The position numbers and the translations under genes were made by a program. Shown in pieces: positions 2 to 354 of a DNA stretch of 64,000 nucleotides (positions are counted from its first letter, which is position 1; each line of letters begins with the position of its first letter). Below the pieces are notes generated by a model. That model made no database searches. It was not told where the DNA came from and saw only the letters and a list, made by a program, of their open reading frames with translations. Location of the stretch: assembly GCF_988243305.1 (NCBI RefSeq), contig NZ_OZ547136.1, one strand, 5' to 3'.

Positions 2-274
2 TTTGTAAAAGCATCACTGGAGCAGAATGCACTATCGGGCAACTCTCCGGCAACTCCGGATGGTTGGATAAGCTGTAGTGAGCGAATGCCGAATACCAAA
101 ACAGCCGTTCTTGTTGCCGTGGAGTTTGACAGGAAAGGTGACTGGCGAATGAAATGGGCTACTTACATCCCCGGGCATCCTGACGCTAATGATGGGTGGA
201 TAATTCCTGGTGCGTCGTGGAAACCGTCACACTGGATGCCGCTACCAGAACCGCCGCAGGAGGTGAATCAATGA
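2..274 (+). CDS. DUF551-like lambdoid phage protein, 5'-truncated by the window edge
   Basis: Reading frame is open from the first base of the window; C-terminal W/G-rich motif (DGWISCSERMP, GDW, DGWIIPGASW) typical of nin-region DUF551 proteins; partial. Confidence 0.5.
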   Translation, partial: FVKASLEQNALSGNSPATPDGWISCSERMPNTKTAVLVAVEFDRKGDWRMKWATYIPGHPDANDGWIIPGASWKPSHWMPLPEPPQEVNQ

Positions 275-354
275 GCTGGCCTGAAGCATTAACAACGGTA
301 GGAATTGCGATGGCGGTGGCGCTGGTGGTGTATTCGATTTGCCGCTGGGGATAA
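271..354 (+). CDS. Small membrane peptide (27 aa), translationally coupled to the upstream gene
   Basis: ATGA start/stop overlap at 271-274; strong Shine-Dalgarno AGGAGGTG immediately upstream; single hydrophobic helix (VGIAMAVALVVYSI). Confidence 0.4.
   Translation: MSWPEALTTVGIAMAVALVVYSICRWG

What the first reader, a model, noticed from the sequence alone, without database searches (positions are those of the whole stretch)
271..354. Translationally coupled 27-aa membrane peptide with a strong RBS
A consensus Shine-Dalgarno (AGGAGGTG) precedes an ATG that overlaps the upstream stop (ATGA). The ORF encodes one hydrophobic helix. It is below typical annotation size thresholds but has unusually strong translation signals.
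Basis: seen in the sequence. Interest (0 to 1): 0.3.

Follow-up and report, generated by a model that had tools for sequence, protein, structure and literature searches.

The report
Conserved 27-residue phage membrane peptide gene
The 27-codon reading frame is a real gene under purifying selection for a one-helix membrane peptide; about a third of complete E. coli genomes carry it in prophages, RefSeq leaves it unannotated in the three genomes checked, and its function is unknown.

Summary
AGGAGGTG (258-265) lies 5 nt before ATG 271, which overlaps the TGA (272-274) of the upstream EaA/Ea22-like DUF551 gene. The frame ends at TAA 352-354.

The gene is real.
- Across 59 intact alleles, third codon positions vary most (entropy 0.91 against 0.48 and 0.31).
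- Pooled dN/dS is 0.32 in this frame, against 0.86 and 2.2 in the other two sense frames.
- In a sample anchored on the 3' end, 65 of 77 unique alleles keep exactly 27 codons.
- Mosaic breakpoints fall at the start and the stop. At least 6 upstream gene types and more than 12 downstream contexts occur. Only 30 of 117 occurrences have the hok promoter downstream.
- 1,719 of 5,426 complete E. coli genomes carry it.

A profile search found 132 clusters of 25-60 aa relatives ([STN]-W-P-[ED]-A-F, hydrophobic helix, R/K) in phage-like and mobile-element-like metagenome contigs. Pfam, NCBIfam, PHROGs, PADLOC and PDB hold no matching family.

It is most likely a single-pass inner-membrane protein, N terminus out and C terminus in, made by coupled translation. 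Its partner and role are inferred only. About 8% of alleles are null, mostly an amber codon at position 3. It is a new member of a known kind; interest is moderate.

The parts
258..265 (+). Shine-Dalgarno sequence AGGAGGTG, lying inside the last codons (Q-E-V) of the upstream gene, 5 nt before the start codon
   Evidence: Read directly from the sequence. Duplex energy with the 16S 3' end is -11.6 kcal/mol, in the top 0.2% of ATGs in the window. An SD of -6 kcal/mol or better is present in 44 of 49 homologous upstream contexts.
271..354 (+). Small ORF of 27 codons plus TAA, encoding MSWPEALTTVGIAMAVALVVYSICRWG: an N-cap box (S2-x-x-E5), a 24-residue helix from W3 to W26, and R25 on the C-terminal side
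   Evidence: ORF list. Codon-position entropy 0.48/0.31/0.91 and dN/dS 0.32. 65 of 77 unique alleles are intact in a sample unbiased for the 5' end. The exact peptide is deposited as 'putative prophage protein' for E. coli 042 and PCN033. AlphaFold2 predicts one helix.
272..274 (+). TGA stop of the upstream gene, overlapping the ATG (ATGA): the translational-coupling junction
   Evidence: All 117 core homologous occurrences match a search pattern that begins ATGA; in 106 the upstream ORF ends on that TGA, and the VT1-Sakai type (L009), among the other 11, uses TGATG.
2..274 (+). 3' end of the upstream EaA/Ea22-like gene with a C-terminal DUF551 domain; it runs off the left edge of the window and supplies the terminating ribosomes
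   Evidence: Pfam DUF551, E = 3e-22. No stop in frame. The full 300-codon ORF is present in the near-identical locus L001.
396..811 (+). Context only, not part of the gene: the hok/mok/sok toxin-antitoxin locus that starts 42 nt after the small ORF's stop codon
   Evidence: Rfam sok RF01794, 117 bits, at 396-571. HOK_GEF Pfam hit for 509-721. Terminator-like hairpin at 790-807. Only 30 of 117 homologous small ORFs have this neighbour.

Best explanation
Window 271-354 is a genuine protein-coding gene of lambdoid prophages. It encodes a 27-residue single-pass inner-membrane protein.

Shown:
- The frame, its length, its start and its ribosome-binding site are conserved, with purifying selection on the amino-acid sequence.
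- The gene moves as a discrete mosaic module whose breakpoints fall at its start and stop codons.
- It belongs to a wide family of 25-60 aa proteins with the pattern [S/T/N]-W-P-[E/D]-A-F, about 18 hydrophobic residues, then R/K.

Inferred:
- It is transcribed with the early 'ea'/exo-xis-type gene chain.
- Ribosomes that terminate the upstream EaA/Ea22-like gene at UGA re-initiate at the overlapping AUG, or new 30S subunits bind the AGGAGGUG 5 nt upstream.
- At 27 residues the peptide is finished before it leaves the ribosomal tunnel, so it is inserted after translation (via SRP/YidC/SecYEG, or spontaneously).
- The acidic N-terminal cap faces the periplasm and R25 faces the cytoplasm.
- The helix (W3 to W26, with aromatic residues at both interfaces and a G11/A13/A15/A17 small-residue run) acts by packing against another transmembrane helix. 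That would make it a small membrane-protein modulator of a host or phage inner-membrane protein during early infection or induction. The partner is unknown.
For: - Sequence anatomy.
- Homologues: 95 phage records at 52-93% amino-acid identity, 92 of them covering at least 80% of the query.
- Selection: 59 intact unique alleles have entropy 0.48/0.31/0.91 at codon positions 1/2/3 (Mann-Whitney p = 6e-6). Pooled dN/dS is 0.32, against 0.86 and 2.2 in the other sense frames. Synonymous sites are near saturation (pS 0.7-0.8) in pairs that still keep 27 codons.
- Intactness: a scan anchored on the 3' end gave 77 unique alleles. 65 are intact, 2 use GTG behind an SD, 2 carry in-frame 6-nt deletions, and 2 run a few codons longer.
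- Modularity: the start overlaps or abuts the stop of at least 6 different upstream C-terminal types, and there are more than 12 downstream contexts. Similarity to the ArgO145 allele begins at ATG and ends at TAA.
- RBS: an SD of -6 kcal/mol or better occurs in 44 of 49 contexts.
- Prevalence: 1,719 of 5,426 complete E. coli genomes, up to 7 places (copies) per genome.
- Wider family: 132 cluster representatives at E <= 1e-3 in 1.84 billion proteins, mostly 25-60 aa. Among 96 distant ones, R/K sits 22 residues after the Trp in 76. Net charge is -1.1 on the N side and +0.76 on the C side.
- Context of distant members: several sit, with 4-bp overlaps, in chains of small genes; one contig also carries DUF3987, an excisionase-type HTH and an integrase-like gene.
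- Structure: AlphaFold2 predicts a helix from the Trp onward with pLDDT 91, which puts S/T/N2 at the N-cap and E/D5 at N3, a capping box.
- Insertion energy is about 0 kcal/mol.
- Post-translational insertion of proteins under 45-50 aa is described in PMC12648545.
Against: - There is no direct evidence of translation or membrane localisation. The one EHEC ribosome-profiling study examined considered only ORFs of 30 aa or more and does not list this peptide.
- No partner can be named. Conserved positions in the helix do not cluster on one face (permutation p = 0.2).
- dN/dS of 0.3 is only moderate constraint.
- About 8% of unique alleles are null: an amber at codon 3, a 1-nt deletion, and a replaced 5' end.
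- The antisense frame that shares third positions is also free of stops in 63 of 68 alleles, so periodicity alone does not fix the strand. The conserved ATG, SD and stop do. No antisense ORF of 20 aa or more lies in that frame in the window.
- The invariance of M1, W3, P4 and A6 in the first scan was forced by the search pattern. In the unbiased sample W3 and P4 occasionally vary.
Confidence: 0.65

Rival explanations
1. The peptide is a membrane-damaging effector, like a type I toxin or Kil. It would oligomerise in the inner membrane and depolarise or permeabilise it, helping host takeover or killing, rather than regulating a specific partner.
For: Its size and hydrophobicity match known small membrane toxins (own knowledge: TisB 29 aa, ShoB 26 aa, DinQ 27 aa). 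It sits next to hok in 30 of 117 occurrences. Null alleles recur at codon 3 in several backgrounds, as expected if the product is costly to lysogens.
Against: There is no antisense RNA or sequestered RBS: Rfam reported no match overlapping the ORF when window 1-1300 was scanned at E <= 1, and the SD is strong and conserved. The helix has no charged or strongly polar residues inside it. About a third of complete genomes carry copies (up to 7 places per genome), and most sampled alleles are intact. There is no Hok/Gef or other toxin family match, and most copies are not next to hok.
Confidence: 0.15
2. The peptide is the membrane anchor or partner of the upstream EaA/Ea22-like protein. Coupled translation would give roughly 1:1 amounts, and the helix would tether or regulate that protein at the membrane.
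For: In E. coli phages the ORF nearly always follows an EaA/Ea22-like mosaic gene, or the gene right after one, with overlapping stop and start. Rare natural in-frame fusions of an Ea22-like coiled coil to the peptide exist: P0064 (143 aa) and P0068 (206 aa).
Against: The upstream C-terminal domains are unrelated to each other: DUF551, the 'LISVEDILR' type, a zinc-ribbon/coiled-coil type, and others. The fusions occur on only 1-3 contigs. The upstream neighbours of the distant family members had no Pfam hit on record (or were not looked up), so a link to Ea22/DUF551 is not evident. The peptide exposes only about 2-5 residues outside the bilayer for binding a soluble protein.
Confidence: 0.1
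3. The product has no function. The ORF would be kept as a translated spacer or 'landing pad' (for example to avoid Rho polarity at the end of the operon), or as a conserved linker that promotes homologous recombination between phage modules.
For: The 3' half of the ORF is nearly identical at the DNA level among E. coli alleles in very different contexts, and module joints lie at its ends. This is how lambdoid 'linker' sequences behave (own knowledge of lambdoid mosaicism).
Against: Selection acts on the amino-acid sequence (dN/dS 0.32; third positions most variable). The length is fixed at 27 codons, and indels are in frame. Distant members keep the motif, the helix and the basic residue on contigs of 45-62% G+C.
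Confidence: 0.06
4. It is a chance open frame left behind a generic SD-ATGA gene junction.
For: The same junction (AGGTGAATnAATG) precedes a different gene in 933W. A 27-codon hydrophobic frame is not rare in GC-rich DNA.
Against: All of the conservation evidence above, together with presence in 1,719 genomes and 132 related clusters.
Confidence: 0.02

Closest known systems
Small single-pass inner-membrane regulatory proteins of enterobacteria (KdpF 29 aa, MgtS 31 aa, AcrZ 49 aa, YohP 27 aa; reviewed in PMC12648545)
   Same: Under 50 aa, one transmembrane helix, short tails, routinely missed by annotation, and expected to insert post-translationally. It is likely to act through helix-helix contacts.
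   Different: There is no sequence relationship: KdpF TIGR02115 scores 11.5 bits against a cut-off of 26.85. This gene is phage-borne and coupled to an upstream gene rather than a chromosomal stress-induced gene. Its partner is unknown.
PfsE of Pseudomonas filamentous phage Pf4, an inner-membrane protein that binds PilC and blocks superinfection (PMC8764522 for function; its 30-residue size is from own knowledge)
   Same: A phage-encoded peptide of about 30 residues with one hydrophobic helix and conserved aromatic residues. It is a precedent that such a peptide can have a specific host membrane target.
   Different: Different phage type and host, and the sequences were not compared here. No evidence here for superinfection exclusion or any target. 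This is an analogy only.
Type I toxins, including the neighbouring Hok (PF01848)
   Same: A small hydrophobic membrane peptide, physically adjacent to hok/sok in this window.
   Different: It lies outside the hok/sok RNA element, which spans 396-571. It has no antisense RNA, a strong exposed RBS, no Pfam hit, and most copies are not next to hok.
ORFs of the lambda and Stx-phage exo-xis region (orf60a, orf63, orf61, orf73, ea22, ea8.5; PMC4195576, PMC10834534)
   Same: The same genomic neighbourhood: in 933W, VT1-Sakai and other phages the ORF directly follows Ea22/EaA/DUF551-type genes (933W, PhiR12_1) and lies upstream of xis-int (VT1-Sakai) or hok (933W).
   Different: In the passages of these two papers that were searched, this ORF is not described. 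It is much smaller and membrane-embedded. In this window the module lies upstream of hok-DUF968-rusA-Q rather than next to xis-int.

Membership tests
Hok/Gef family (PF01848) | Match to the HOK_GEF profile | tested here: not met
   No Pfam hit for the 27-aa peptide except DUF883_C at 14.5 bits. The neighbouring ORF 509-721 does hit HOK_GEF at 3.5e-23.
Type I toxin-antitoxin toxin (functional class) | A cis- or trans-encoded antisense RNA antitoxin overlapping the toxin mRNA, with repressed or sequestered translation initiation | tested here: not met
   Rfam scan of window 1-1300 at E <= 1 reported no match overlapping 258-357; the sok match starts at 396. The SD is strong and conserved, and the start is coupled to the upstream gene. 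No promoter-like site lies on the minus strand across the ORF.
Type I toxin-antitoxin toxin (functional class) | Toxicity on expression | not testable with these tools
   Needs an expression experiment.
Small single-pass membrane proteins (functional class, no common ancestry implied) | 50 aa or fewer with one predicted transmembrane helix | tested here: met
   27 aa. Hessa sum for residues 6-24 is -0.03 kcal/mol. AlphaFold2 gives a single helix, pLDDT 91.
Small single-pass membrane proteins (functional class, no common ancestry implied) | A genuine gene: conserved frame under purifying selection with translation signals | tested here: met
Small single-pass membrane proteins (functional class, no common ancestry implied) | Detected protein product in the membrane fraction | not testable with these tools
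   No Ribo-seq or proteomic evidence was found. Hücker et al. 2017 excluded ORFs under 30 aa.
'WPEAF' small-protein family (defined here, not curated anywhere searched) | An N-terminal [S/T/N]-W-P-[E/D]-A-[F/I/L] motif, then about 18 hydrophobic residues with G at +8 and A at +12 and +14 from the Trp, then R/K at about +22; total length 23-60 aa | tested here: met
   The window peptide was one of the sequences used to build the profile. The profile recovers 132 cluster representatives at E <= 1e-3.
KdpF (TIGR02115) | Score above the curated cut-off of 26.85 bits | tested here: not met
   11.5 bits, E = 0.23.
Holins and pinholins | Location in the lysis cassette next to an endolysin; typically 60-150 aa with 1-3 transmembrane domains | tested here: not met
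   The ORF lies in the early ea/exo-xis-type region, upstream of hok, DUF968, rusA and Q. It is 27 aa. There is no PHROG holin match for the peptide itself.
Regulatory leader peptide (attenuation uORF) | A fixed downstream regulated gene, with the peptide sequence free to vary apart from control codons | tested here: not met
   There are more than 12 different downstream contexts, and the amino-acid sequence is under selection.

The most novel reading that the evidence does not exclude
The ORF is the E. coli representative of a widespread, so far uncurated family of phage and mobile-element small membrane proteins ('WPEAF' peptides). The family has at least 132 clusters at 50% identity. The conserved capped helix would carry out one specific job, for example binding a conserved inner-membrane machine to block superinfection or to reprogramme the host early in infection. 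The recurrent amber alleles at codon 3 would reflect selection against that activity in some lysogens.
Probability: 0.35. Interest if true: 0.6.

Novelty: new member of a known kind. Interest (0 to 1): 0.4.

Why it matters
A gene present in about a third of complete E. coli genomes, including EHEC Stx phages 933W, VT1-Sakai and VT2-Sakai, is absent from the RefSeq annotation of the three genomes checked and from Pfam, NCBIfam and PHROGs. It is therefore likely to be missed in pangenome, defence-system and phage-function screens. It adds a member to the poorly understood exo-xis/'ea' accessory region, which influences lysis-lysogeny decisions in Stx phages. Its family gives a compact, easily synthesised 27-residue test case for how phages use minimal transmembrane helices. 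Practically, a 27-column profile built from these sequences could be the basis for annotating it. The finding is not very surprising, because phages are known to be rich in small membrane proteins.

Tried and rejected
- Link to hok/sok: rejected. Rfam places the hok/sok element at 396-571, and only 30 of 117 homologues have hok downstream.
- The antisense 63-aa ORF (242-433) as the real gene: rejected. It is open in only 25 of 68 alleles, and its third positions fall on the most conserved sense positions.
- Programmed frameshift fusing the DUF551 protein to the helix: there is no slippery sequence at AAU CAA UGA (read). The 121- and 185-aa proteins that clustered with the peptide all end at ...PEPPQEVNQ, so they are not fusions.
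- Known families: Pfam, NCBIfam, PHROGs, PADLOC and PDB sequence searches gave only sub-threshold compositional hits (DUF883_C, KdpF, phrog_4612, GABA-B receptor TM).
- A conserved helix face that would point to a specific partner: not significant, p = 0.2.
- Literature: no paper holds the peptide strings. The supplements of Hücker 2017 have no hit, and that study used a 30-aa floor. No supplements are held for Weaver 2019.
- The species-representative genome scan confirmed only 3 loci: one Escherichia and two probable contaminant contigs. The core type therefore looks essentially confined to Escherichia/Shigella (with stray Salmonella records).
- Resemblance to PEP-CTERM-type tripartite sorting signals (motif, TM helix, basic residue): considered from memory and not pursued. 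I am not aware of an exosortase in E. coli.

Full report
**1. The observation**

The sequence is as described. AGGAGGTG occupies 258-265. After a 5-nt spacer (AATCA) comes ATG at 271-273. Its last two bases and the next A form the TGA (272-274) that ends the upstream frame. The ORF has 27 sense codons and ends at TAA 352-354. It encodes MSWPEALTTVGIAMAVALVVYSICRWG.

The upstream frame is open from the window edge and carries a DUF551 domain (E = 3e-22). In the 99.6%-identical E. coli PCN033 locus it is an uninterrupted 300-codon EaA/Ea22-like ORF.

The SD/anti-SD duplex energy is -11.6 kcal/mol, in the best 0.2% of the 2,128 ATG trinucleotides of the window.

**2. Context in the window**

Downstream lies a hok/mok/sok locus. 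Rfam sok matches 396-571 at 117 bits. The mok/hok ORF at 509-721 hits HOK_GEF. A terminator-like hairpin sits at 790-807. Then come a DUF968 gene, rusA and a Q-like antiterminator.

The small ORF ends 42 nt before the hok/sok RNA element begins, so it is not part of that element. RefSeq does not annotate the ORF in PCN033, MCJCHV-1 or EDL933, and the 933W record does not either.

**3. Is it a gene?**

tblastn against phage records found 95 records at 52-93% amino-acid identity, 92 of them covering at least 80% of the query.

A scan of viral contigs with a pattern for the first 20 nt gave 67 unique core alleles. Of these, 59 have exactly 27 codons plus a stop. Outside the region fixed by the pattern, the results were:
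- Mean entropy at codon positions 1, 2 and 3 is 0.48, 0.31 and 0.91 (Mann-Whitney p = 6e-6).
- Pooled Nei-Gojobori dN/dS is 0.32 in the ORF frame, against 0.86 and 2.2 in the other two sense frames.
- Divergent pairs reach pS of 0.7-0.8 while keeping the length and the hydrophobic character.

The first scan forced the N-terminal motif, so I repeated it anchored on the 3' end. That gave 77 unique alleles:
- 65 are intact.
- 2 start with GTG behind an SD.
- 2 have in-frame 6-nt deletions.
- 2 run a few codons longer.
- 6 are null: TGG to TAG at codon 3 in four backgrounds, one 1-nt deletion, and one replaced 5' end.

The antisense 63-aa ORF at 242-433 is open in only 25 of 68 alleles. One antisense frame shares third positions with the sense frame and is equally free of stops, so periodicity alone does not fix the strand. 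The conserved ATG, SD and stop do that.

**4. Modularity**

All 117 core occurrences match a pattern that begins ATGA. In 106 of them the upstream ORF ends on that TGA; the VT1-Sakai type (L009), among the other 11, has TGATG. The upstream genes end in at least six unrelated ways: DUF551 ...PEPPQEVNQ...LISVEDILR, a zinc-ribbon/coiled-coil protein ending ...KNIEQKVNQ...PDDRQEVNQ...KKKGMNQ and ...LENNK. Most of them are EaA/Ea22-like mosaic proteins.

Downstream contexts number more than a dozen. They include the hok promoter (30 of 117), an 80-aa gene starting MFALIQRG, a reversed toxin-antitoxin pair (ArgO145), an ea22 gene, a terminator-like hairpin, and xis-int.

Comparison with ArgO145 shows that similarity begins at the ATG and ends at the stop codon. 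Joints at gene borders are what selection leaves behind in lambdoid mosaics (established knowledge), so the ORF behaves as a unit of selection.

An SD of -6 kcal/mol or better is kept in 44 of 49 distinct upstream contexts, against 8% of background ATGs.

**5. Distribution**

A 100-nt query finds the ORF in 1,719 of 5,426 complete E. coli genomes. There are 3,298 places in total, up to 7 per genome, and 164 are on plasmids. Among one-genome-per-species representatives only an Escherichia sp. and two probable contaminant contigs were confirmed.

The exact peptide exists in GenBank as 'putative prophage protein' for E. coli 042 and PCN033, and as 'bacteriophage protein' or 'hypothetical protein' for a few other strains. 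A few annotators have therefore seen it, but it has never been characterised. No paper in the library contains the peptide strings. The EHEC ribosome-profiling study of intergenic small genes considered only ORFs of 30 aa or more.

**6. A wider family**

Ten of the 15 non-core pattern matches in viral contigs were also hydrophobic short ORFs: eight encode complete peptides of 23-29 aa, and the rest are two frameshifted variants of one of these and one cut off by a contig end. Their contigs have 45-62% G+C.

A 27-column profile searched against 1.84 billion cluster representatives returned 132 proteins at E <= 1e-3, nearly all 25-60 aa. Of these, 96 are not the E. coli type. Their consensus is [S/N/T]-W-P-[E/D]-A-F-x-x-V-G-x-x-[F/W]-A-x-A-[F/L]-x-x-[W/Y]-x-x-x-[R/K]. 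R/K lies 22 residues after the Trp in 76 of the 96. Net charge is -1.1 on the N side and +0.76 on the C side.

Where contigs are long enough, these genes also sit in chains of small genes, several with 4-bp overlaps. One contig also carries DUF3987, an excisionase-type HTH and an integrase-like gene.

Pfam, NCBIfam, PHROGs, PADLOC and PDB sequences hold no matching family.

**7. Structure and likely mechanism**

AlphaFold2 on the family alignment gives a single helix from the Trp to the penultimate residue (pLDDT 91). This places S/T/N2 at the N-cap and E/D5 at N3, the classical capping box (established knowledge of helix capping).

The helix of about 24 residues has aromatic residues at both ends (W3; Y21 and W26) and a run of small residues (G11, A13, A15, A17). 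Its insertion energy is about 0 kcal/mol. By the positive-inside rule the N terminus faces the periplasm and R25 the cytoplasm (inference).

At 27 residues the chain is complete before it leaves the ribosome, so insertion must be post-translational, as described for YohP-type proteins (PMC12648545).

Expression by termination-reinitiation at AUGA, helped by the SD, is inferred from the conserved geometry. It has not been shown.

What the helix does is unknown. I commit to a regulatory helix-helix interaction with an inner-membrane protein as the most likely mode of action. The rivals are a membrane-damaging toxin-like peptide and an anchor for the upstream Ea22-like protein. No conserved helix face could be demonstrated (p = 0.2).

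**8. Verdict**

The feature is a real small membrane-protein gene that standard pipelines largely leave unannotated. It is a member of a broad uncurated family. It is a new member of a known kind rather than a new kind of system. Interest is moderate (0.4). The open points are expression, topology, partner and phenotype.

Noticed in passing
Homologous loci L006, L011, L131 and others; equivalent to window 277-279: Null alleles recur at one spot. TGG to TAG at codon 3 occurs in at least four different allele backgrounds; in the three seen with their flank in the first scan the upstream junction is 'gaaggaggtacgcca'. Phage 689R5 (L005) has a 1-nt deletion in codons 2-3, and that record annotates the resulting frame-shifted 36-aa ORF.
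   Followed up: partly
Proteins P0055, P0056, P0057 and P0062 (relatives of window 301-321): In-frame hexanucleotide repeat expansions lie inside the transmembrane helix (...GIAMAMAMAMAMAVAL..., ...AVAVAVAV...). They lengthen the peptide to 31-35 aa.
   Followed up: no
L001 2372-3274 (PCN033; its 3' part corresponds to window 1-274): RefSeq PGAP annotates an uninterrupted 300-codon EaA/Ea22-like DUF551 ORF as two 'incomplete' pseudogene fragments plus a 62-aa CDS. This looks like an artefact of the mosaic protein architecture.
   Followed up: partly
window 396-811: A complete hok/mok/sok locus: Rfam sok at 117 bits, mok at 509-721, hokD at 566-721 and a terminator at 790-807. A putative weak promoter (TTGCGG 362-367, TAGAAT 384-389) starts 7 nt after the small ORF's stop codon.
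   Followed up: partly
window 730-811: A sub-threshold Rfam match to isrK, the Gifsy-1 prophage sRNA (27 bits against a gathering score of 50, E = 0.0015). It overlaps the 3' end and terminator of the hok transcript.
   Followed up: no
window 5100-5172 and 5276-5352: tRNA-Met (CAT) and tRNA-Arg (TCT) genes lie downstream of the Q-like antiterminator at 2605-3426. This arrangement is typical of Stx-phage-like late regions.
   Followed up: no
L003 1642-2391, minus strand (Stx2 converting phage I 'ORF-38'): The deposited annotation holds a 249-aa antisense ORF running across the small ORF and the upstream gene. The corresponding antisense frame is open in only 25 of 68 alleles, so the ORF is probably spurious.
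   Followed up: partly
Proteins P0073, P0079, P0084, P0098, P0115 and others (distant family members): Many distant members are called with a short N-terminal extension of the form M-[I/L]-L-(L)-A-(A)-[E/Q/D]-x-x before the [S/T/N]-W-P-[E/D]-A-F motif. It is unclear whether this is a real extension or a wrong start call.
   Followed up: no
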